Shown here: piece after piece, positions 48,028 through 58,385 of the stretch
Layout: each line of letters starts with the position of its first letter
Position numbering within the stretch: position 1 is the stretch's first letter
NCBI GenBank assembly: GCA_016191465.1
Contig: JACPOP010000008.1
Location: 113,129-177,128 of the forward strand
Reading direction: 5' to 3'
Source: Chloroflexota bacterium
Lineage (GTDB): Bacteria > Chloroflexota > UBA6077 > CF-72
Length of the DNA stretch: 64,000 nt
Made by a program: the position numbers and the translations under genes
Notes under the pieces: generated by a model
Seen by the model: the letters and a program-made list of their open reading frames with translations, nothing else
Database searches by the model: none
What the model was told of the DNA's origin: nothing

Positions 48028-49014
48028 TTACGCGGCGGTCGGCTCGGCTTCGATCCCTGGATGCTTTCGAGGAACGATAATCAACTGAACCCCGGAGGAG
48101 TGTGCATAGCGCCCGGCCTCGTCATTCACCCAGCGGCCCGCTACCACCGGCACAACCGGCTGGCCGAGCTTTTCCAGAAGGTGTGATCGTTCGAGAACAC
48201 GGCGGACATCGCCCACACCAATCCCGGCCGAAACCTCCGTCACGAAGTACGCTTCTGCACCGTCGGGGCGTCGCGGGCCGCGTGCGACCACGTCGGCCAG
48301 CATCACGCTCTCGCGCTCCGGCTCGGTCAGGTGGCCGGCCTCGACGGCATCGTCGAGCAAGTCGGCCAGCACCGAGGGTTCTAGGACCCTGATCCTCCGC
48401 GCGAGGCGTCCGAGATAGGACGGAGCCCGGCGGGCAAACCGAAGCTCCATCAACTCACCATCCATCTCGCCAATCCGCCCCACCTGAGCCTGAAGCTGGG
48501 CGGTCAGTGATTCGACAGCACGGGTGAGCGCGTCCATCCGGACCGTGAGCGCGTCCACTCGTGCCGTGAGCGCGTCCATCCGGACCGTGAGCGCGTCCAC
48601 CCGTGCGGTGAGCGCCTCGACCTGGGCCGTGAGCGCGTCCATTCGGACCGTGAGCGCCTCGACCTGGGCGGTGAGCGCGTCCACTCGTGCGGTGAGGGCG
48701 TCCACCCGTGCGGTGAGCGCCTCGACCTGGACCGTGAGCGCGTCCACTCGTGCGGTGAGGGCGTCCATTCTGACCGTGAGCAGTTGGACTTGGGCGGTGA
48801 GCGCGTCCATTCGTGCGGTGAGCAGTTGGACCTGCCTGGCGAGCACGGCGAGCTGCTCATCAGTGTGCCGCTGCGCCTCGGCCAGGCTGCGCACGAGCTC
48901 CGGCAGAGCGAGCAGCTCCTCCGGGAGGACGTGCTGCCGAAGCTGCGCCCGCCACTCCGGATGCTCCTCCAGAAGACGAAGCAGGTCCTTGAAATCACCG
49001 ACGGTGAACGTCAC
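48028..49014 (-). CDS. Coiled-coil heptad-repeat protein with C-terminal PD-(D/E)xK-like domain
   Basis: FKDLLRLLEEHPEWRAQLR N-terminus; 17 heptads; ADVVARG...VTEVS...DVRR C-terminus. Confidence 0.8.
   Translation of the reverse strand: MTFTVGDFKDLLRLLEEHPEWRAQLRQHVLPEELLALPELVRSLAEAQRHTDEQLAVLARQVQLLTARMDALTAQVQLLTVRMDALTARVDALTVQVEALTARVDALTARVDALTAQVEALTVRMDALTAQVEALTARVDALTVRMDALTARVDALTVRMDALTRAVESLTAQLQAQVGRIGEMDGELMELRFARRAPSYLGRLARRIRVLEPSVLADLLDDAVEAGHLTEPERESVMLADVVARGPRRPDGAEAYFVTEVSAGIGVGDVRRVLERSHLLEKLGQPVVPVVAGRWVNDEAGRYAHSSGVQLIIVPRKHPGIEAEPTAA
48487..48843 (-). repeat. 17 x 21-bp in-frame tandem repeat
   Basis: Units encode LT[AV][RQ][VM][DE]A; 357 bp = 17 x 21. Confidence 0.95.
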
Positions 49015-49269
49015 ACCGGGAGTATCGCCGTTCACACCCCTCACGAGCACGTGACCAGAAGCACGTGCAGGTTTGGCGGTCAATTCGCCTGCGACAGTCG
49101 AGCACGGAGCTTGCGCGGCATACGTCTGGGTACCTGGCGCACCAGTGGCACGGCGGTGCCGACGCACGTACCGTAGAGGTCGCGCGGGTCATCCGGGCGC
49201 CGCGCTTCGAAGAAGACGAGGTACAGGCCGACGAGCGTCTGGATCAAAACGACCCCGAAGGCGGTGCGC

Positions 49270-51012: not shown

Positions 51013-51435
51013 TCAATCTGTGTCGTCAGCGGGAAGGAGTCGAAAGGGAAGGCCGCGGGTGGACGTGACAGCGCGGAAGTGCCGCTGGTCGAGCGTCAGT
51101 ACGCTCTGACAGCTGTATCGGTCCGCCAGCACGATGATGGACGCGTCAGCAATGCCAAGCTGCAAGTCAGCGTACTGACGGATGATGCCGGCGGCTGCCG
51201 CGACATCGGCAGCATCAAACGGGGCGAGCTCGTAGGCGCCGCGGCGCAAGTCATCAAGGAGTTTCAACTCTTCCGTCTGGCCAGCGTGGGTCGATACGAG
51301 GTAGTCAAGCTCGGCCAGAACAAAAGGGGACAGGATTCGCCGTTGCGGATGGAGCAATGTCCTGGCCGCCGCCGCATGATGCGCCTGGCGTGGGTCGACG
51401 GCGGCCAGGATGCCGCTCGTGTCAACGAGGATCAC
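51013..51435 (-). CDS. vapC: VapC PIN-domain toxin
   Basis: ILVDTSG, LAELDYL, GIADASI, TLDQRHF. Confidence 0.93.
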   Translation of the reverse strand: MILVDTSGILAAVDPRQAHHAAAARTLLHPQRRILSPFVLAELDYLVSTHAGQTEELKLLDDLRRGAYELAPFDAADVAAAAGIIRQYADLQLGIADASIIVLADRYSCQSVLTLDQRHFRAVTSTRGLPFRLLPADDTD

Positions 51436-51653
51436 GGCCGGCCGAAGCCGGCCAGGTGCGCATCGGCGTGCTCTGCGAACAATGGGTCGTCGCTGACGAA
51501 GATCCCAATGGTGGGGCGCGGCGGAGTCTGATGAGCGATCGCCAGGCGAACGCCTTCACGGATCAAGTCGGCTTCACTGCATCCCCTTTCGCTGGCGGCC
51601 CGTTCGAGTTCGGCCTTGAGGGCATGAGGCAGGTACACCGTTGTCTTCACCAT
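51432..51653 (-). CDS. vapB: VapB ribbon-helix-helix antitoxin
   Basis: KTTVYLP...SEADLIREGV; GTGA overlap with vapC. Confidence 0.9.
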   Translation of the reverse strand: MVKTTVYLPHALKAELERAASERGCSEADLIREGVRLAIAHQTPPRPTIGIFVSDDPLFAEHADAHLAGFGRP

Positions 51654-52408: not shown

Positions 52409-52547
52409 ACCTCTAACGCTTCTCTAACGCCCGCTCCAACGCTCCTCTTACAGCCCATTGACGACCCTCTCAGTCGGCTCGTGCAGCGCGGATGATCGAT
52501 TGGCTCGATCGCGCGGCACCACCACGTTTGAAGGAGGACCAGCCTCT

Positions 52548-52850
52548 ATGGCTACAACGCTCAAGCCCCTGGGAGATCGCGTCGTCGTGAAGCCCAAGGC
52601 CAAAGAAGACATCACCAAGAGTGGCATCGTGCTGCCGGATACGGCCAGCGAGAAGCCGCAAGAAGGCACCGTCCTGGCGGTCGGCCCCGGCCGCATCATG
52701 GACAACGGGAAGCGCGTGGACCTCGAGGTCAAGACCGGCGACACGGTGCTCTTCGCCAAGTATGCCGGCACGGAAGTCAAGATCGACGGCGACGAGCTGC
52801 TGGTGGTGCGCGAGAGCGACCTGCTGGCGATCGTCGGCAACGGCAAGTAG
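52548..52850 (+). CDS. groES: Co-chaperonin GroES
   Basis: [25 protein letters not shown]; AAGGAGG RBS. Confidence 0.97.
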
Positions 52851-52892
52851 CGCGCACCGCGCTCGCAAATCTCGGAGGAAGCACTAACTCAC

Positions 52893-54518
52893 ATGGCTGC
52901 TAAAGAACTGGTATTTGACGTCGACGCACGTCGCCAGCTGAAGCTGGGTATTGACGCGCTGGCGAACGCCGTCAAGGTAACCCTCGGCCCCCGCGGCCGG
53001 AACGTCGCCATCGACAAGAAGTGGGGCGCCCCGACCGTTACGCACGACGGCGTGACCGTGGCGAAAGAGATCGAGCTCGAGAACCACTTCCAGAACATGG
53101 GCGCGCAGATGCTCAAGCAGGCCGCGACCAAGACCAATGACGTTGCCGGCGACGGCACCACCACGTCCACGGTTCTTGCCCAGGCAATCGTGACCGAGGG
53201 TCTGCGGAACCTCGCGGCGGGCGCCAACCCGATGCTGATGAAGCGCGGCATTGACGCGGCAACTGCCGCCGTGGCCGAGGAGATCAAGCGCATCGCCACG
53301 CCCGTGAACGGCCAGCAGGACATTGAGCACATCGCCACCGTCTCCGGTGGCGACGAGGAAATCGGCCAGTTGCTCGCCCAGGCGATGGAGAAGGTCGGCA
53401 AGGACGGCGTTATCACGGTCGAAGAGGGCAAGGGCCTGAAGCTAGAGGTGGAATACACCGATGGCATGCAGTTCGACCGCGGCTACATCTCGGCCTACTT
53501 CATCACCGACTCGAACCGCATGGAAGCCGCCATCGACGAGCCGTACCTGCTCATCACGGACAAGAAGATCAGCGCCATTTCGGACATCGTGCCGTTGCTG
53601 GAGAAGCTGGTCCAGACGGGCCGTAAGGAGCTGGTGATTATCGCCGAGGACATCGACGGCGAGGCGCTGTCGACCCTGGTGGTGAACAAGCTGCGCGGCA
53701 TTCTGAACGTGCTCGCCGTCAAGGCCCCTGGCTTCGGCGACCGGCGCAAGGAGATGCTCCGCGACATCGCCACCCTGACCGGCGGCACGGTCATCTCGGA
53801 AGAAGTCGGGAAGAAACTTGACCAGACCGGTTTGACCGACCTGGGCCGCGCCCGCCGGGTCGTGTGCACCAAGGACGACACGACGATCGTGGATGGCGCG
53901 GGCGAAGCGTCCGACATTCAGGGCCGTATCAAGCAGATCAAGGCGCAGATCGAGGAAACCACCTCGGACTACGACCGTGAGAAGCTGCAGGAGCGGCTGG
54001 CGAAGCTGTCTGGCGGCGTTGCCGTCTTCAAGGTTGGCGCGGCCACCGAGGTCGAGCTGAAAGAGAAGAAGGCGCGCGTCGAGGACGCGCTGCACGCCAC
54101 GCGCGCGGCCGTCGAAGAGGGCGTGGTGCCGGGCGGTGGAACTGCCCTGCTGCGCGCGGCATCCGTGCTGGACAACCTGAAGCTCGAAGGCGACCAGAAG
54201 CTGGGCGTTGCCATGCTGCGGCGCGCACTCGAAGAGCCGGTTCGCCAGCTCGTCCGCAACGCGGGCCTTGAGGGCAGCGTGGTGGTCGAGGAGCTGCGTC
54301 GGAGCAAGGACAAGAAGAACTGGGGCTTCGACGTTGTGGCCGAGAAGTACGTGGATCTCCTGGCGGCGGGCATCATTGATCCCGCCAAGGTCACCCGCAC
54401 GGCGCTGGAGAATGCTGCCAGCGTGGCAGGGATGATCATCACCACGGAGGCCTTGATCTCGGACGCCCCTGAGAAAAAGGCTCCCTCCGCGGCTCCGAGC
54501 CCGGACATGTACGACTAA
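52893..54518 (+). CDS. groEL: Chaperonin GroEL
   Basis: [36 protein letters not shown]. Confidence 0.98.
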
Positions 54519-54629: not shown

Positions 54630-55613
54630 CTATGGGGCTGGTGTTGCAGCAGGGCTCCCGCTAGGGGCCAGCGTGGTGCTCGGTTCCGCCAAGGGAGTTG
54701 CACGAGGGGCGGGCGTGACGCTGGGGCTGGCCGCCACGGTGGCGGTGGGCGTGGTCGTCACCGTGACGGTGGGAGCCGTTGCCGCGGGGGCAGGAGCTCG
54801 GCCATCCTTCTCGCGGTTGTCGTCCCGCCGCTCGTCCCAGCTTTCCTGTGCATACTGGAGGAGCTCCTGGAACTGGCCCATGACGCGGTTCAGCCGCGCT
54901 TCGGCTTCCTTCGGGTCGATCTCATTGACATCTTTAATGCGCTCAAAGGTATCGAGCTCTTTGTTCATCTCGCGCACCAGGCCGCGGACGTTCTCGGGCG
55001 GGTTGGCGTCGTCGTCCACAGGGATCACGTACTGGATCGCACGCGCAACGGTCACACAGCGGGTGCAGTTGGTGTTCAGCGCCACCGCCCGGTTCTGGGG
55101 GACGATGCGCGAAGCGCCGCGTCGATAGACGACGATCTGCGCGGCCACGGCGATCGACTGGCAGTCGGTGCAGCTACTCTCCGCCTCGGCGACGTTTTGA
55201 CTGGTGACCTCCTCGCCTCGAACCGCGGTGAAATCCACATTTCCGCGCGCCCGGAAGCGGCCGTCCTGCTTATTCGAAACCTGGACCACGTTGTTCCCCT
55301 TGCCGCTCGGGACGCGCGCAATGTCAAACTGCTGGGCAACTGGCGTAGCGGCGCCCGCTCCAGCAGCGGGGCTCGGGCCGGCCGCGCCGGGACCAGCCGC
55401 CGGACCTGGTGAAGGCGACGCTCCAACCCCGGGCGGATTCCCCGCCACGGGCGAGCCGACTGGCGACGCCGAGGCCGGTCTGTTCCCTGGGCCCGCGGCC
55501 GTGGGTGTGGACGTGGCACCAGGCGCCGGCGTGCAGGCGCCGAGTACAAGGGCCACCCCCGCGAACAGCCCTGCTGCCAGGATGGCGCGCGGTACACGGG
55601 CAAAGGTGAACAT
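54630..55613 (-). CDS. Lipoprotein with two CxxC-containing beta-hairpin-like repeats
   Basis: Lipobox LGAC (Cys27), P/G/A linker, repeats CTDC and CTRC, helical domain, PT tail; GGAGG RBS. Confidence 0.85.
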   Translation of the reverse strand: MFTFARVPRAILAAGLFAGVALVLGACTPAPGATSTPTAAGPGNRPASASPVGSPVAGNPPGVGASPSPGPAAGPGAAGPSPAAGAGAATPVAQQFDIARVPSGKGNNVVQVSNKQDGRFRARGNVDFTAVRGEEVTSQNVAEAESSCTDCQSIAVAAQIVVYRRGASRIVPQNRAVALNTNCTRCVTVARAIQYVIPVDDDANPPENVRGLVREMNKELDTFERIKDVNEIDPKEAEARLNRVMGQFQELLQYAQESWDERRDDNREKDGRAPAPAATAPTVTVTTTPTATVAASPSVTPAPRATPLAEPSTTLAPSGSPAATPAP

Positions 55614-55633: not shown

Positions 55634-57709
55634 TTACCGAACAGGGGTCGGTGATGGTGATGGTGATGGTGATGGACGGGGCGTCCGGGTGGGACCGGCC
55701 GTAGCGGTAGCCGTCGGGGGCGGCGTCCCTGCCGTAGGCGTCGCGGTCAACGCGGGAGAGGTGGCAGGCACCGGCCCGGACGGCTGATCTGTCGGACCGG
55801 CGGTCGCGTCCGTAGCGGGTGGGCTGGTCGGTGCCGGAGCCGGAGCCCGAGCGGGCGCACTCGCCAGCGTTGGCCGCGGTGTTGGCGGCGCGGTGGGCGC
55901 GACCACGGGTGCTGGTGCCGGTGCCGGTGCCGGTGCGCCGCCGACGGTGGCGGTTGGCCCACCGCTGCCCGGCGTCGGCGTCGCCGGCGGTGGAGTCGGC
56001 GTGCTGGTGCCGGTCCCGTTGCTTGTACCGGCCGTCTCCGCGGCGACGGCCACCGGGGCGGCCGTCGCGATCCCGGGCGGCTCCGCGGTCGGAGATGTGC
56101 GTTCCGCGCCCGGGTTCGCCTGAGGCGTCGCTGTCGAGACCGGCGGGAGCGGATCACGGCCCGGCGCAACGCCAAACACCTCGCCCACGGTGCCGCGTTC
56201 CTCCGGCTGGAGTGGAACGTACTTGCGGTTCGCATTGACCGTCCCCTGACCCGCGCCCGACGGCGGGTTCTGTGCTGCCCGAGGGTCCGGCGCCCAGGCG
56301 TAGGCGAGCCCGCCCAGCACCACGGCAAGCCCCGCCCCGGCCACCACGCGACGTCCGGTGGATGGCTGGCTCCAGTGCCAGAGGCCCACGAGGATGCGTT
56401 TCCCGAAGCGATACAGCGACAGCAGGATCGCCAGGCTGGGCAATGCCAGACCCAGCAATTGGCCCAGACCGAGCACCGCCTCGCCGACGTTCCCAGAAGC
56501 CAGCCCGCGCGTCAGACTGGCCCCCTGCTGGCTGCCGGAGTCCCACGCGGTCGCCAGGACGCGCGGCGCGCCCCGCAGCATGGTCAGGATGCCCAGGGCC
56601 AGCAGCGGCACGGTGACGAGCGCGTACAGGCTGAAGACCGCTTTGCCCCACCACTTCAGCTCGGGGAGCGCCGGCGCCGGCGCTTCATCTTTGCCAGGCC
56701 GGAGCCGCTTCGCCACAGCGGCGATGCGTGAAAAGAAATCCGGCACGCCAGTCAGGTCCGCCAGGATCCAGTAGCCATCCAGGCGCACGAACGGCATCAA
56801 TTGGCGGATCACGTCCAGGTTCAGCAGGCCCACCACCAGCAGGAGAGGCTCCCAGCGGGTAGCGGCGTACACGCCCATCGCGGCGAGCGCAACCAGCAGG
56901 TGGAAATAGATGCCGCCGAGATCGGTCCGCACCCGGGCCCAGCGCCCCAGACGGTAATTGTCGGAGACGTCGGTGAAGAATGCCGGGTAGACGATGTAGA
57001 AGCCGACGCCCATGGAGCGGGCCCGGCCGCCGCCATAGCGCAGCCCGGCCGCGTGGCCGAGCTCGTGGAAGCCCGCCGCCAGCGCGGTGACGGCAATCAT
57101 CGCCAGCAGCACGCCCGGCACGTACAGCGCCTCGCGCAGGCTGGAAGCAACCCCGTGGATAGCGTACAGCCACACTTCCCCAGCCATGGCCGCGAGGGTG
57201 GCTACCACCAGGACTGGTGGCCAGAACAGGATCTTGACGATGCGGATCAACGGGTCAAGAGTCTTTCCGTCGATGAGCCGGGTCCGCATCTGGATCTGCA
57301 GCATCGAGCGGCTTCCACCCGCTCCGCCGAGCACGCGGCCCTGCGCATCCGGCACCAGGCCGCGTTGCAGAAGCTGCGTCAGGACCAACTGGCGGACGTT
57401 GTCGTCCGTGACGGAACGGCCGGTAGCTTCCGAGACGGACTCGGCAATCGCGGCGTAGTCGCGCTGGCCATCCATTGCCCCGGCAATGCGATACAGCAGC
57501 TCGGTGACCTGGATGTACCCCTCGCCGTTCCGATCCAGCAGCCACGGCGGGTCGACAAAGGCGCTTTCGCGCATTTGCCCGGCCAGGCGAACGCCCTCGG
57601 CAATGCGAGGGCGTTCCGGCAGCGCGGCGGGTATGGAAGCCGTTGGGGCGGCGCCGAACGGCGCCGCCCCAACGGCGGCTGAGCGCGTGGCCCGGGGCCT
57701 AACTGCCAC
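55634..57709 (-). CDS. M50 (site-2) zinc metalloprotease with N-terminal putative PqqD/RRE-like domain and C-terminal Pro/Thr tail
   Basis: FHELGH (HExxH) in a TM, QLMPFVRLDG third-ligand motif; N-terminal YIQVTELLYRIAGAMDGQRDYAAIA..VS...L.QRGL winged helix; start uncertain (GTG 57709 overlapping the upstream stop). Confidence 0.88.
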   Translation of the reverse strand: MAVRPRATRSAAVGAAPFGAAPTASIPAALPERPRIAEGVRLAGQMRESAFVDPPWLLDRNGEGYIQVTELLYRIAGAMDGQRDYAAIAESVSEATGRSVTDDNVRQLVLTQLLQRGLVPDAQGRVLGGAGGSRSMLQIQMRTRLIDGKTLDPLIRIVKILFWPPVLVVATLAAMAGEVWLYAIHGVASSLREALYVPGVLLAMIAVTALAAGFHELGHAAGLRYGGGRARSMGVGFYIVYPAFFTDVSDNYRLGRWARVRTDLGGIYFHLLVALAAMGVYAATRWEPLLLVVGLLNLDVIRQLMPFVRLDGYWILADLTGVPDFFSRIAAVAKRLRPGKDEAPAPALPELKWWGKAVFSLYALVTVPLLALGILTMLRGAPRVLATAWDSGSQQGASLTRGLASGNVGEAVLGLGQLLGLALPSLAILLSLYRFGKRILVGLWHWSQPSTGRRVVAGAGLAVVLGGLAYAWAPDPRAAQNPPSGAGQGTVNANRKYVPLQPEERGTVGEVFGVAPGRDPLPPVSTATPQANPGAERTSPTAEPPGIATAAPVAVAAETAGTSNGTGTSTPTPPPATPTPGSGGPTATVGGAPAPAPAPAPVVAPTAPPTPRPTLASAPARAPAPAPTSPPATDATAGPTDQPSGPVPATSPALTATPTAGTPPPTATATAGPTRTPRPSPSPSPSPTPVR

Positions 57710-58034
57710 CCTGAGCGATGGTCGATGCCTGGTCCGAGGTCGCGGTCGCCGTGCCGTTGAGCGTCTGCTCGATGAGCGACGTCTGCGGGGCCGTGGCAAT
57801 AGACGTGGAGCCAACCGACAGCACGTTGGCGCTCACCGCCGCGTCAATCGGGGCGGCGACGTTGGCGTTGGCTGCCACGGCGGCATTGACCGGTGCGGCT
57901 AAGTCCAGCGCCAGGTTCAGGTCGGCATTGACGTCCAGGAGCGACATGGCTTCACGATCGGGAAGATCGGATGCCTGTTCGGCCTCAAGCTCTTGCGGGC
58001 TCATGCCCCGTTGCTGGGGTTCAGGATTCGACAT
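57699..58034 (-). CDS. LPDREAMS-leader precursor protein 3 (111 aa)
   Basis: AAGGAG RBS; paralog of 58520-58882. Confidence 0.88.
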   Translation of the reverse strand: MSNPEPQQRGMSPQELEAEQASDLPDREAMSLLDVNADLNLALDLAAPVNAAVAANANVAAPIDAAVSANVLSVGSTSIATAPQTSLIEQTLNGTATATSDQASTIAQGGS

Positions 58035-58094: not shown

Positions 58095-58385
58095 TCAGGG
58101 GGTGTTCGTCGAGGACTGATCCACAATCACTACCTGGCTGGCGGTGGCATCGGCAACGGAATAGTTCGTGTTGACGTTTGATGCCAGGGCCTCGTTGATC
58201 GGCATGGCGAAGTTGGCGATGGGGAACGCCAGGCCGACGTCGATCATTGACATTGCCTCGCGGTCCGGCAGGTCCGTGGTCTGCTCCGCCCCGATCTCCT
58301 CGGGGCTAAGGCCCACGTGCTCGGACGGGGGGGCCGATTCCGGCTCGCGCTCGCGCTCCGGCTGCTGTTCGTCTGTCTCCCGCAT
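58095..58385 (-). CDS. LPDREAMS-leader precursor protein 2 (96 aa)
   Basis: GGAGGTG RBS; LSPEEIGAEQTTDLPDREAMS. Confidence 0.88.
   Translation of the reverse strand: MRETDEQQPEREREPESAPPSEHVGLSPEEIGAEQTTDLPDREAMSMIDVGLAFPIANFAMPINEALASNVNTNYSVADATASQVVIVDQSSTNTP

What the first reader, a model, noticed from the sequence alone, without database searches (positions are those of the whole stretch)
55021..55208. The lipoprotein carries two CxxC-substituted copies of the precursor core repeat
Seen: gap-free alignment of lipoprotein PQNRAVALNTNCTRCVTVARAIQYVI, precursor 2 PINEALASNVNTNYSVADATASQVVI and precursor 1 PIDASVSANVLSVGSVSAAAAPQQSG. The shared pattern is P-x-[ND]-x-[AS]-[VL]-[AS]-x-N-x-x-[CST]-x-x-[CS]-x3-A-x-A-x-Q. 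The first lipoprotein copy is SQNVAEAESSCTDCQSIAVAAQIVV. The precursor S/T-x-x-S turn is replaced by CxxC. Inference: a membrane-tethered, disulfide-locked (or metal-locked) template of the same hairpin, i.e. a nucleator/anchor analogous in role to CsgB or FapB.
Basis: partly seen in the sequence, partly recalled or inferred. Interest (0 to 1): 0.85.

Follow-up and report, generated by a model that had tools for sequence, protein, structure and literature searches.

The report
Tethered CxxC mimic of peptide cores
A membrane-anchored protein next to three small leader-bearing peptide genes and their membrane protease carries two cysteine-stapled copies of the same short hairpin motif as the peptides, in an uncharacterised three-part gene set found in soil and groundwater Chloroflexota and Actinomycetota.

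Summary
The lipoprotein (54630-55613, minus strand) has two CxxC hairpin repeats at 55128-55202 and 55023-55100. The repeats are homologous to each other (hhalign P 2.9e-14).

Repeat 2 matches the core of type-A precursors, such as window precursor 2, in one gap-free register:
- profile-profile P is 8.4e-5 to 1e-5;
- the score is 26.8, against a maximum of 18.0 in 172 column shuffles;
- precursor 2 is the only other ORF among 35,212 in the genome hit by the CxxC-domain HMM (E 0.0069).

The match to precursor 1 (type B) is weak and not significant alone.

The module of precursors, a daptide-like intramembrane HExxH peptidase and the CxxC domain is conserved. The CxxC domain and the precursors occur in the same 9 of 301 Chloroflexota genomes, and together in 21 of 21 CxxC-positive Actinomycetota genomes. 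In at least 11 loci the domain is fused to the extracytoplasmic C-terminus of the peptidase.

No Pfam or NCBIfam family and no paper was found. The nucleator/anchor role is plausible but untested.

The parts
54630..55613 (-). CxxC lipoprotein, 327 aa. Layout: signal peptide with lipobox, Pro/Gly/Ala-rich linker, about 100-aa beta-hairpin domain, helical stretch, Pro/Thr-rich tail.
   Evidence: ORF. 49 homologues, none with a Pfam domain. No Pfam or NCBIfam family at its cut-off. 1845 cluster representatives at E<=1e-3.
55533..55613 (-). Signal peptide ending in the lipobox-like VLGAC (aa 1-27).
   Evidence: Read from the translation. The Cys at this place is conserved in most full-length homologues of alignment A1. 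The lipobox rule itself is recalled, not computed.
55209..55304 (-). N-terminal Cys-less hairpin-like element (N.V...N..DG, aa 104-135). It may be a degenerate third copy.
   Evidence: N108/N114 are nearly invariant or invariant. N is present in 159 and 188 of 190 sequences. hhalign of this element vs repeat 2: P 1.6e-4 over 11 columns.
55128..55202 (-). CxxC repeat 1 (aa 138-162): .N.A.A...C..C...A.A.Q
   Evidence: N 190, A 188, A 186, C 190, C 190 of 190. Copy 1 vs copy 2: P 2.9e-14.
55011..55100 (-). CxxC repeat 2 (aa 172-201): P.N.A.A.N..C..C.T.A.A.Q....VDD. This is the copy that matches the type-A precursor core.
   Evidence: hhalign vs type-A precursors: P 8.4e-5 and 1e-5. Shuffle controls.
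54840..55001 (-). Helical stretch after the hairpin domain (aa 205-258).
   Evidence: Conserved across 32 sequences in A2. In the PDB sequence search it matches only designed helical bundles, E>=0.0011. That it is helical is an inference.
55634..57814 (-). Intramembrane HExxH peptidase, related to the daptide peptidase MpaP. It has a cytoplasmic N-terminal domain, about 7 membrane helices and a 218-aa extracytoplasmic Pro/Thr-rich tail. The true start is probably downstream of 57814, because the ORF overlaps precursor 3.
   Evidence: NF041824: E 2.6e-38, 132 bits (cut-off 300), aa 88-414. NF058609: E 1e-9. Peptidase_M50: E 0.11. Hydropathy and positive-inside count.
57053..57067 (-). HELGH zinc-binding motif (aa 250-254 of the 726-aa ORF).
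   Evidence: HExxH at 250. Translation.
57699..58034 (-). Precursor 3 (111 aa), type B: leader DLPDREAMS, then Ala/Asn/Asp-rich strands.
   Evidence: Type-B HMM: E 6.7e-27.
58095..58385 (-). Precursor 2 (96 aa), type-A-like.
   Evidence: Type-A HMM: E 8.9e-13. First row of alignment A3.
58125..58202 (-). Core hairpin of precursor 2 (aa 62-87) that aligns gap-free with CxxC repeat 2.
   Evidence: The CxxC-domain HMM hits this ORF with E 0.0069 among 35,212 ORFs.
58520..58933 (-).
   Evidence: Type-B HMM: E 5e-27. The match to the lipoprotein is not significant alone.

Best explanation
The region is the last gene of a conserved three-part module on the minus strand. Part one is one to five small genes with an acidic leader ([ED]LP[DE]R[ED]AMS). 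Their cores are Ala/Asn/Ser/Gln-rich, free of Cys and free of Lys/Arg, and built of alternating-pattern strands. Part two is an MpaP-like intramembrane HExxH peptidase with a cytoplasmic N-terminal domain. Part three is an extracytoplasmic, membrane-tethered domain.

The core of that domain is two, perhaps three, copies of the same strand-turn-strand motif as the precursor core: P.N.A.A.N..[S/C]..[S/C]...A.A.Q. The two turn Ser/Thr positions are replaced by an almost invariant CxxC.

Shown: the motif identity, the internal duplication, the strict co-occurrence, the fusion to the peptidase C-terminus, and the outside-facing tether.

Inferred: the peptidase removes the leader. The released cores then meet, at the outer face of the membrane, a pre-folded, cysteine-stapled copy of their own hairpin. 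I favour a disulfide, given the location outside the cell. The cores dock on it by edge-to-edge or stacked beta pairing through the shared Asn/Gln and Ala positions. The domain would therefore act as the tethered docking or nucleating end of an assembly of the processed peptides. This is analogous in role to CsgB, FapB or the long chaplins.

I rate the shared-motif statement at about 0.85. I rate the docking/anchor mechanism at about 0.4. The single figure below is for the whole statement.
For: Motif:
- Invariant columns of 190 CxxC-domain representatives and of 23 type-A precursors coincide in residue and spacing.
- hhalign P is 8.4e-5 and 1e-5 for repeat 2 alone.
- The observed score is 26.8. 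Shuffle maxima are 18.0 (n=100) and 17.7 (n=72, parity-preserving).
- The CxxC-domain HMM searched against all 35,212 six-frame ORFs of the genome finds only the lipoprotein and precursor 2 at E<=1 (E 0.0069).
- An HMM from 189 other representatives again ranks precursor 2 first after self (E 0.04).
- In genome G415 the precursor HMM hits the CxxC gene itself (E 0.0064).

Linkage:
- The same 9 of 301 genomes of the window's phylum hold both the domain and the precursors.
- In 301 Actinomycetota genomes, 21 hold the domain and all 21 have a precursor-HMM hit at E<=0.01. For 20 of them the hit lies outside the CxxC gene. Three further genomes have precursor hits only.
- The peptidase plus CxxC families are the only gene families shared by all long loci (15 of 15 and 14 of 15).

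Fusion:
- HExGH and the double CxxC lie in one open frame in L005, L006 and L041 and in L043-L050.

Location:
- The topology count puts the peptidase C-terminus outside.
- 152 of 157 stand-alone homologues have an N-terminal hydrophobic segment, 51 of them with a lipobox-like Cys.

General knowledge (recalled): nucleators and anchors of bacterial fibres are usually paralogues of the subunit (CsgB/CsgA, FapB/FapC, long/short chaplins). Immunity proteins and chaperones usually are not.

Peptidase family: the daptide paper describes an RRE domain fused N-terminally to an intramembrane site-2 protease that removes the leader (PMC10028931, passages read).
Against: - No structure or complex model could be made. 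Binding is not shown.
- The Atlas's own model of the protein is only moderate (pTM 0.56, pLDDT 0.60).
- Sequence-to-profile E-values are borderline: 0.0069 and 0.04 one way. The other way E is 0.98, tied with two unrelated ORFs.
- Type-B cores, which include two of the three window precursors, match weakly: P 0.12, 0.035 and 0.0077. They score 1-8 bits against the domain HMM.
- There is no cognate co-variation. At 19 variable positions the cognate pairs score -7.43 and the non-cognate pairs -5.68, permutation p 0.88, 14 loci.
- L003 (genome G606) keeps the CxxC gene at the syntenic place with no peptidase and no precursor hit in the genome. That genome's completeness is not given.
- L007 and L023 carry same-leader precursors with proline-rich cores unlike the hairpin.
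- No export route for the cores is encoded in the conserved module.
- Variable positions of the CxxC repeats carry Arg/Tyr/Lys/Trp, unlike the precursors (listing).
Confidence: 0.45

Rival explanations
1. The domain binds the processed cores through the shared hairpin, but in order to hold them back. It would be a self-protection (immunity-like) protein, an anti-aggregation cap or an export chaperone at the membrane surface, not the seed of a polymer.
For: - The gene order of peptides, processing peptidase and lipoprotein resembles bacteriocin loci with lipoprotein immunity (general knowledge, recalled).
- An orphan CxxC gene survives without precursors or peptidase in L003/G606, as orphan immunity genes do.
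- The helical stretch and charged or aromatic residues on the repeats could block one sheet edge.
- The same motif evidence applies as for the best explanation.
Against: - The cores are acidic or neutral, without Lys/Arg or aromatic amphipathic character. This is unlike most membrane-active bacteriocins (general knowledge).
- Immunity proteins and chaperones are not usually paralogues of their client.
- Frequent fusion to the peptidase ties the domain to production rather than to defence against neighbours.
- The orphan case is one lineage in a genome of unknown completeness.
Confidence: 0.22
2. The shared motif reflects common descent or the same small fold only. The CxxC ectodomain then serves the peptidase in another way, for example as a redox- or metal-sensing regulator, or as a zinc-ribbon-like structural module with two CxxC knuckles. 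It would not contact the cores.
For: - Two CxxC motifs sit at the tips of two consecutive hairpins, 31 residues apart. This is the layout of zinc ribbons and rubredoxin knuckles (recalled).
- All four Cys are present in 190 of 191 stored homologues.
- No cognate co-variation was found.
- The similarity is confined to a scaffold of about ten positions.
Against: - The shared positions are Asn, Gln and Ala at the same spacing. These are more than a generic hairpin needs.
- Co-occurrence with these precursors is near-perfect in two phyla.
- Two natural variants keep only one CxxC (P0136; the L009 paralogue). This fits a four-Cys metal site poorly.
- No zinc-ribbon Pfam model matched.
- The location is extracytoplasmic, where structural zinc ribbons are uncommon (general knowledge).
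Confidence: 0.2
3. The resemblance is a chance product of Ala/Asn-rich, period-2 composition.
For: - Both partners are rich in Ala, Asn, Val and Ser with alternating patterns.
- Precursors 1 and 3 do not exceed shuffles (159 of 500 and 50 of 500 reach the observed score).
- The reverse HMM search gives E 0.98.
Against: - None of 100 column shuffles and none of 72 parity-preserving shuffles reaches the observed profile score.
- The reversed profile scores 16.4 against 26.8.
- For precursor 2, 0 of 500 shuffles reach the observed score.
- Precursor 2 is the top non-self hit genome-wide in two HMM searches.
- The invariant columns coincide in two independently aligned families.
Confidence: 0.03

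Closest known systems
Curli CsgB/CsgA and Pseudomonas FapB/FapC (nucleator-subunit pairs of functional amyloids)
   Same: A cell-bound protein carries copies of the same strand-turn-strand repeat as the secreted subunits. The conserved positions are Asn/Gln and small residues, and several subunit paralogues sit in one operon. This is a resemblance in logic. The motif sharing was tested here.
   Different: - No sequence relation: no Curlin or other Pfam hit.
- The hosts are monoderm-type phyla, and no CsgG/E/F-like or Fap secretion genes are conserved nearby.
- The subunits carry a RiPP-like leader instead of a Sec signal and go with an intramembrane peptidase.
- The tethered copy is cysteine-stapled and is a lipoprotein or a peptidase fusion.
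- Amyloid formation is untested.
Streptomyces chaplins (long ChpA-C with two chaplin domains anchored to the wall, short ChpD-H)
   Same: The anchored form has two copies of the domain that the short secreted forms have once. The hosts include Actinomycetota.
   Different: - No chaplin Pfam hit.
- The anchor is a lipobox or a peptidase fusion, not a sortase signal.
- Here the anchored copies carry the Cys and the free peptides carry none.
Daptide clusters: MpaP, an RRE domain fused to an intramembrane site-2 protease that removes the leader (PMC10028931, passages read)
   Same: The window peptidase matches the daptide HExxH model over its N-terminal domain and membrane core (E 2.6e-38). Several short leader-bearing precursors lie directly upstream.
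   Different: - The score of 132 bits is far below the 300-bit cut-off.
- No other gene family is conserved around the module, so no MpaB/C/D/M-like set was seen.
- The precursors do not end in Thr.
- The leader motif is LPDREAMS, not ELExMEAP.
- Daptide clusters are not described with a substrate-like ectodomain in the passages I read.
YydH/LiaK epipeptide maturation metalloproteases
   Same: Weak family match to the membrane HExxH core (NF058609, E 1e-9, aa 237-357). JGI names some CxxC homologues 'putative peptide zinc metalloprotease protein'.
   Different: The match is below its cut-off (38.5 vs 225 bits). No radical-SAM epimerase is conserved nearby.
Zinc ribbon / rubredoxin-type double CxxC knuckles
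   Same: Two CxxC motifs sit at the turns of two successive hairpins.
   Different: No zinc-ribbon model matched. The location is extracytoplasmic. Single-CxxC variants exist. The metal content is unknown.

Membership tests
Curli-type amyloid system (CsgA/CsgB) | Curlin repeat recognisable by the Pfam model | tested here: not met
   No Curlin hit for the lipoprotein or the three precursors at E<=1.
Curli-type amyloid system (CsgA/CsgB) | The nucleator shares the subunit's repeat | tested here: met
   Met as an analogy only. The CxxC repeat vs the type-A core gives hhalign P 8.4e-5 and 1e-5, with shuffle controls.
Curli-type amyloid system (CsgA/CsgB) | Dedicated CsgG/E/F secretion genes | tested here: not met
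   Only the peptidase and CxxC families are shared across the 15 long loci.
Curli-type amyloid system (CsgA/CsgB) | Cross-beta fibres, dye binding, seeding | not testable with these tools
   Needs purified protein.
Daptide biosynthetic cluster | MpaP-type RRE-intramembrane peptidase at the NCBIfam equivalog cut-off | tested here: not met
   NF041824: 132.1 bits against a cut-off of 300, though E is 2.6e-38. It is a relative, not an equivalog.
Daptide biosynthetic cluster | Invariant C-terminal Thr in precursors (PMC10028931, passage) | tested here: not met
   The window precursors end in Ser, Pro and Ser. Type-A precursors end in varied residues.
Daptide biosynthetic cluster | Accessory DUF-RRE protein, oxidative decarboxylase, aminotransferase and methyltransferase genes | tested here: not met
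   No further gene family is conserved around the module in the 15 long loci. The individual enzymes were not sought by their own HMMs.
Chaplins | Chaplin domain by Pfam; sortase signal on the long forms | tested here: not met
   No chaplin hit. The anchor is a lipobox or a fusion.
Zinc ribbon | Two CxxC knuckles on two hairpins | tested here: inconclusive
   The spacing C148-C151 ... C183-C186 fits. No zinc-ribbon Pfam model matched. The fold was not modelled (closed).
Zinc ribbon | Bound zinc | not testable with these tools
   Needs metal analysis of the protein.
Lipoprotein immunity proteins of peptide bacteriocins (LanI-like) | Sequence relation to a known immunity family | tested here: not met
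   No Pfam or NCBIfam hit. The nearest Atlas clusters are unnamed.
Lipoprotein immunity proteins of peptide bacteriocins (LanI-like) | Protects the producer from its own peptide | not testable with these tools
   Needs a growth assay.

The most novel reading that the evidence does not exclude
This would be a previously undescribed way of building an extracellular beta-polymer in monoderm soil and groundwater bacteria. The subunits carry a RiPP-type leader instead of a Sec signal and are processed by an RRE-type intramembrane peptidase. They then polymerise on a disulfide-stapled double-hairpin paralogue of themselves that is tethered to, or fused with, that same peptidase. One membrane machine would thus process, release and nucleate the fibre.
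Probability: 0.3. Interest if true: 0.85.

Novelty: new variant of a known kind. Interest (0 to 1): 0.72.

Why it matters
The module is widespread. The CxxC domain has 1845 cluster representatives at 50% identity. It occurs in about 3% of sampled Chloroflexota genomes and 7% of sampled Actinomycetota genomes. It is unannotated: RefSeq calls both Phycicoccus genes 'hypothetical protein', and there is no Pfam or NCBIfam family.

An accessory domain that copies its substrate's core motif, with the turn residues swapped for cysteines, is an unusual and testable design. If the domain templates assembly, it links RiPP-style leader-dependent processing with fibre nucleation. It would also give a new handle for finding surface polymers in little-studied phyla. 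If instead it caps or sequesters the peptides, it is a new kind of self-protection by mimicry.

Either way, the pair of a stapled hairpin and a free hairpin is a compact model for studying templated beta-sheet growth. A cultured carrier, Phycicoccus sp. Soil748, exists.

Tried and rejected
- Structure prediction of the CxxC domain was switched off.
- Complex prediction of the domain with precursor 2 was unavailable.
- Earlier scan notes were closed.
- As a result, no fold search was possible.

Searches that gave nothing useful:
- The PDB sequence search with profile A2 gave only designed helical bundles on the helical tail, E>=0.0011. It says nothing about the hairpin part.
- The Atlas look-alikes of the domain are unnamed actinobacterial clusters.
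- The Atlas look-alikes of precursor 3 carry the automatic name 'peptidoglycan-binding protein family' with no Pfam (score 0.95). This is a lead that I could not verify.
- Pfam on the peptidase N-terminal part (window 57200-57580) gave nothing at E<=5. The RRE assignment therefore rests on the NF041824 match and on the daptide paper only.
- Sequencing runs: no RNA holder is listed. One DNA holder may be the source sample.

Tests with negative or limited results:
- The cognate co-variation test was negative.
- The hhalign self-comparison of the whole domain with -alt did not report repeat 1 vs repeat 2. The sub-alignments did.

Literature:
- Six sequence motifs of the precursors, searched 'anywhere': 0 papers.
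- 'RRE-Finder/HExxH/membrane/precursor peptides/Actinobacteria' and 'functional amyloid/lipoprotein/nucleator/Actinobacteria/Chloroflexi': nothing on this module appeared in the listings.
- 'daptide/intramembrane metalloprotease': listing only, apart from PMC10028931, of which I read passages.
- Supplements were not opened. The supplementary cluster lists of the daptide and RRE papers might include relatives of this peptidase.
Full report
WHAT IS THERE.
On the minus strand of the window lie five genes in a row:
- precursor 1 (58520-58933);
- precursor 2 (58095-58385);
- precursor 3 (57699-58034);
- a 726-aa membrane protein with HELGH (55634-57814; the start is probably later, since the ORF overlaps precursor 3);
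- 21 bases further, a 327-aa protein (54630-55613) that starts with a signal peptide ending in a lipobox-like VLGAC.

groES and groEL converge from the other side (52458-54518). The window has 67.4% G+C. It is part of a 2.15-Mb, 34-contig genome that is 77.9% complete.

The two segments named in the finding are at aa 138-162 (window 55128-55202) and aa 172-197 (55023-55100) of the last protein.

ANNOTATION.
- Neither the lipoprotein nor the precursors match any Pfam or NCBIfam family.
- The membrane protein matches the daptide intramembrane metalloprotease model NF041824 over aa 88-414 (E 2.6e-38, 132 bits). This is far below the 300-bit equivalog cut-off.
- It matches the YydH/LiaK model weakly.
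- In the daptide paper this peptidase is an RRE domain fused N-terminally to an intramembrane site-2 protease, and it removes the leader (PMC10028931, passages read).
- A hydropathy and charge count gives a cytoplasmic N-terminal domain of about 185 aa, seven membrane helices with HExxH just after helix 2, and a 218-aa Pro/Thr-rich C-terminal tail on the outside.

THE CxxC DOMAIN IS A REAL, LARGE, UNNAMED FAMILY.
- The first search found 49 homologues, all without Pfam domains.
- A profile search of 1.84 billion cluster representatives found 1845 at E<=1e-3, 1499 at E<=1e-10 and 674 at E<=1e-30.
- Of the 191 proteins stored from these searches, 190 have both CxxC motifs.
- In 190 aligned domains, copy 1 reads P.N(190).A(188).A(186)..SC(190)TDC(190)QT.A(183).A(176).Q(183).
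- Copy 2 reads P(186).N(190).A(188).A(187).N(190)..C(190)..C(190).T(185).A(189).A(190).Q(190).
- The two copies are homologous: hhalign probability 98.2%, P 2.9e-14, with one gap.
- An N-terminal Cys-less element (N.V.A.N..DG) resembles the first strand of copy 2 (P 1.6e-4 over 11 columns).
- Of 157 stand-alone homologues with a usable N-terminus, 152 have an N-terminal hydrophobic segment, 51 of them with a lipobox-like Cys. The C-terminal tails are 75% Pro/Thr/Ser/Ala/Gly.

THE PRECURSORS.
Loci fetched with the domain (14 from genomes, 28 from metagenomes) show small ORFs with a conserved acidic leader ending in LP[DE]R[ED]AMS, followed by two kinds of core.
- Type A is short: after the leader comes one hairpin, P.N.A.A.N..SD.S.A.A.A.Q....I.Q.
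- Type B is longer, with extra Asp/Ala/Asn strands before the hairpin and Gln-capped strands after it.
- Window precursor 2 is type-A-like. Precursors 1 and 3 are type B.
- In 23 type-A precursors the invariant core columns are A,N,A,P,N,A,A,N,A,A,A,Q,Q.
- Types A and B are related: hhalign P 3.7e-14, leader included.
- None has Cys or Lys/Arg in the core.

IS THE RESEMBLANCE MORE THAN CHANCE? Yes for repeat 2 against type A.

(i) Single sequences. The best ungapped segment between the lipoprotein domain and precursor 2 scores 52, against a shuffle mean of 27.2 and a maximum of 49 (0 of 500 shuffles reach it). Precursors 1 and 3 do not exceed shuffles (159 and 50 of 500 reach their scores).

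(ii) Profiles.
- My own alignments gave P 2.5e-4, 1.1e-4 and 6.8e-5.
- Repeat 2 alone gave P 1e-5.

(iii) Controls. With an observed score of 26.8:
- 100 full column shuffles of the precursor profile gave mean 10.5, sd 2.4, max 18.0;
- 72 shuffles that keep odd and even columns apart gave mean 11.1, sd 2.3, max 17.7;
- the reversed profile gave 16.4.

(iv) Genome-wide.
- The domain HMM searched against all 35,212 six-frame ORFs of the genome reports only two sequences at E<=1: the lipoprotein (1.2e-55) and precursor 2 (E 0.0069, 17.0 bits), aligned over the same 41 residues.
- An HMM from 189 other representatives, with the window protein left out, again puts precursor 2 first after self (E 0.04; the next, unrelated, is 0.11).
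- The reverse search is weaker. A type-A HMM built without window sequences ranks the lipoprotein ORF sixth overall (E 0.98), level with two unrelated ORFs, though in the right register.
- In another genome (G415) the precursor HMM hits the CxxC gene itself at E 0.0064.

(v) Weak parts.
- Copy 1 matches precursors directly only over 7 columns (P 0.0058).
- Type-B cores match repeat 2 at P 0.12, 0.035 and 0.0077, depending on the alignment.
- They score 1-8 bits against the domain HMM.

LINKAGE.
- In 301 genomes sampled from the window's phylum, 9 hold the domain. The same 9 hold precursors, mostly 2-3 kb apart on one strand.
- In 301 Actinomycetota genomes, 21 hold the domain and 24 have a precursor-HMM hit at E<=0.01.
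- All 21 are among the 24. One of them is G415, where the hit is the CxxC gene at a contig edge. Another is G600, a weak hit with a stop inside. Three genomes (G429, G496 weak, G511) have hits without the domain.
- All ten further genomes reached through loci were checked. Nine have precursors. G606 (L003) has none.
- Among 15 sources of at least 8.5 kb, the only gene families shared widely are the CxxC domain (15 of 15) and the peptidase (14 of 15, L003 being the exception). No transporter or modifying enzyme is conserved.
- In L005, L006 (Phycicoccus sp. Soil748) and L041, and in eight further Actinomycetota genomes (L043-L050), HExGH and the double CxxC lie in one open frame of 767-969 aa. 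There the domain is the C-terminal, outside-facing end of the peptidase.
- These fused forms go with long, two-module type-B precursors.
- The window looks like the split version. The peptidase keeps a long outside tail, and the next gene supplies the domain with its own lipid anchor.

HOW IT MOST LIKELY WORKS.
Shown:
- a membrane-tethered, outside-facing domain made of hairpins that share residue identity and spacing with the precursor core at about ten positions (Pro, Asn, Ala, Ala, Asn, Ala, Ala, Gln), with the two turn Ser/Thr replaced by Cys;
- strict genomic coupling to the precursors and to the leader peptidase, up to fusion.

Inferred:
- The peptidase binds the leader through its N-terminal domain and cuts it off.
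- The cores reach the outer face.
- There the stapled hairpins offer a pre-formed copy of the core fold, on which free cores dock through Asn/Gln ladders and the Ala face.

The paralogy of anchor and subunit is the hallmark of known fibre nucleators (CsgB, FapB, long chaplins; recalled). The core composition (Ala/Asn/Gln/Ser/Thr/Asp, no Cys, no basic residues) fits a structural polymer better than a membrane-active toxin.

I prefer disulfides to a metal for two reasons. The domain is outside the cell, and single-CxxC variants exist (P0136; an L009 paralogue with the first CxxC replaced). This is weak evidence.

WHAT SPEAKS AGAINST, OR REMAINS OPEN.
- No model of the fold or the complex could be made.
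- There is no cognate co-variation at the 19 variable positions in 14 loci (p 0.88).
- Two of the three window precursors are type B, with only a weak match.
- One lineage keeps the CxxC gene alone at the syntenic site.
- L007 and L023 have same-leader precursors with proline-rich cores.
- The way the cores cross the membrane is unknown.

The rivals fit most of the same data. One is a cap, chaperone or immunity role. The other is a non-binding regulatory or zinc-ribbon-like ectodomain. I give them about 0.2 each. Pure chance gets about 0.03.

COMPARISON AND NOVELTY.
The peptidase is a relative, not an equivalog, of the daptide MpaP. The cluster fails the other daptide features (C-terminal Thr, modifying enzymes, leader motif). 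There is no sequence relation to curli, Fap or chaplins.

I found no paper on the module (listings only, except PMC10028931). RefSeq calls the Phycicoccus genes hypothetical. I file it as a new variant of a known kind: a leader-peptide plus RRE-type intramembrane-peptidase cluster that has no modifying enzymes but has an added substrate-mimicking, cysteine-stapled ectodomain.

VERDICT.
It is carried by repeat 2 against type-A cores.
- Interest is 0.72.

Noticed in passing
L007:10097-10673 (-) and L023:1988-2314 (-): Small ORFs with the same LP.RE/DAMS leader but proline-rich cores that have no hairpin motif. They sit beside normal type-A precursors, so one leader/peptidase system may serve unrelated cores.
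   Followed up: no
L001:4496-5132 and the like in L002, L015-L019, L023, L024: In the Limnocylindria-like loci, the leaders of type-A precursors carry a single CxxC (C[TSA][SD]CG) about 30 residues before the LPERDAMS motif. It is absent from the window's precursors.
   Followed up: partly
L003:6644-7714 (genome G606); near-identical L025, L026, L027: A CxxC-domain gene stands alone at the syntenic site, with no peptidase next to it. No precursor hit was found in the 2.8-Mb genome. It may be an orphan copy.
   Followed up: partly
L009:4535-5332: A second CxxC-domain paralogue in an Acidimicrobiia contig. Its first CxxC is replaced by a Cys-less turn while the second is kept.
   Followed up: partly
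L043-L050 (e.g. L043:3951-4769): With fused peptidase-CxxC genes, the 'precursor' is a 220-300-aa, very acidic protein. It has two type-B modules joined by a Gly/Thr/Asp-rich linker, and its leader variant is LPDKEV[IV]S.
   Followed up: partly
window 57699-58034 (precursor 3): The nearest ESM Atlas clusters (score 0.95) are automatically named 'peptidoglycan-binding protein family' without any Pfam family. The basis of the name is unknown.
   Followed up: no
window 48028-49167 (-): A 379-aa ORF with a long run of near-identical repeats (..ALTARVDALT[AV]QVE..). By eye it looks like a coiled-coil protein.
   Followed up: no
window 59310-59831 (-): A 173-aa protein with two treble-clef zinc-finger domains (Pfam zf_Tbcl E 4.4e-18, zf_Tbcl_2 E 2.1e-20) and a Gly-rich linker. 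It lies just upstream of the precursor genes and is not conserved with the module.
   Followed up: partly
window 51013-51653 (-): Two small overlapping ORFs (140 aa and 73 aa) that by eye look like a PIN-domain toxin with a ribbon-helix-helix antitoxin. This was not checked with any tool.
   Followed up: no
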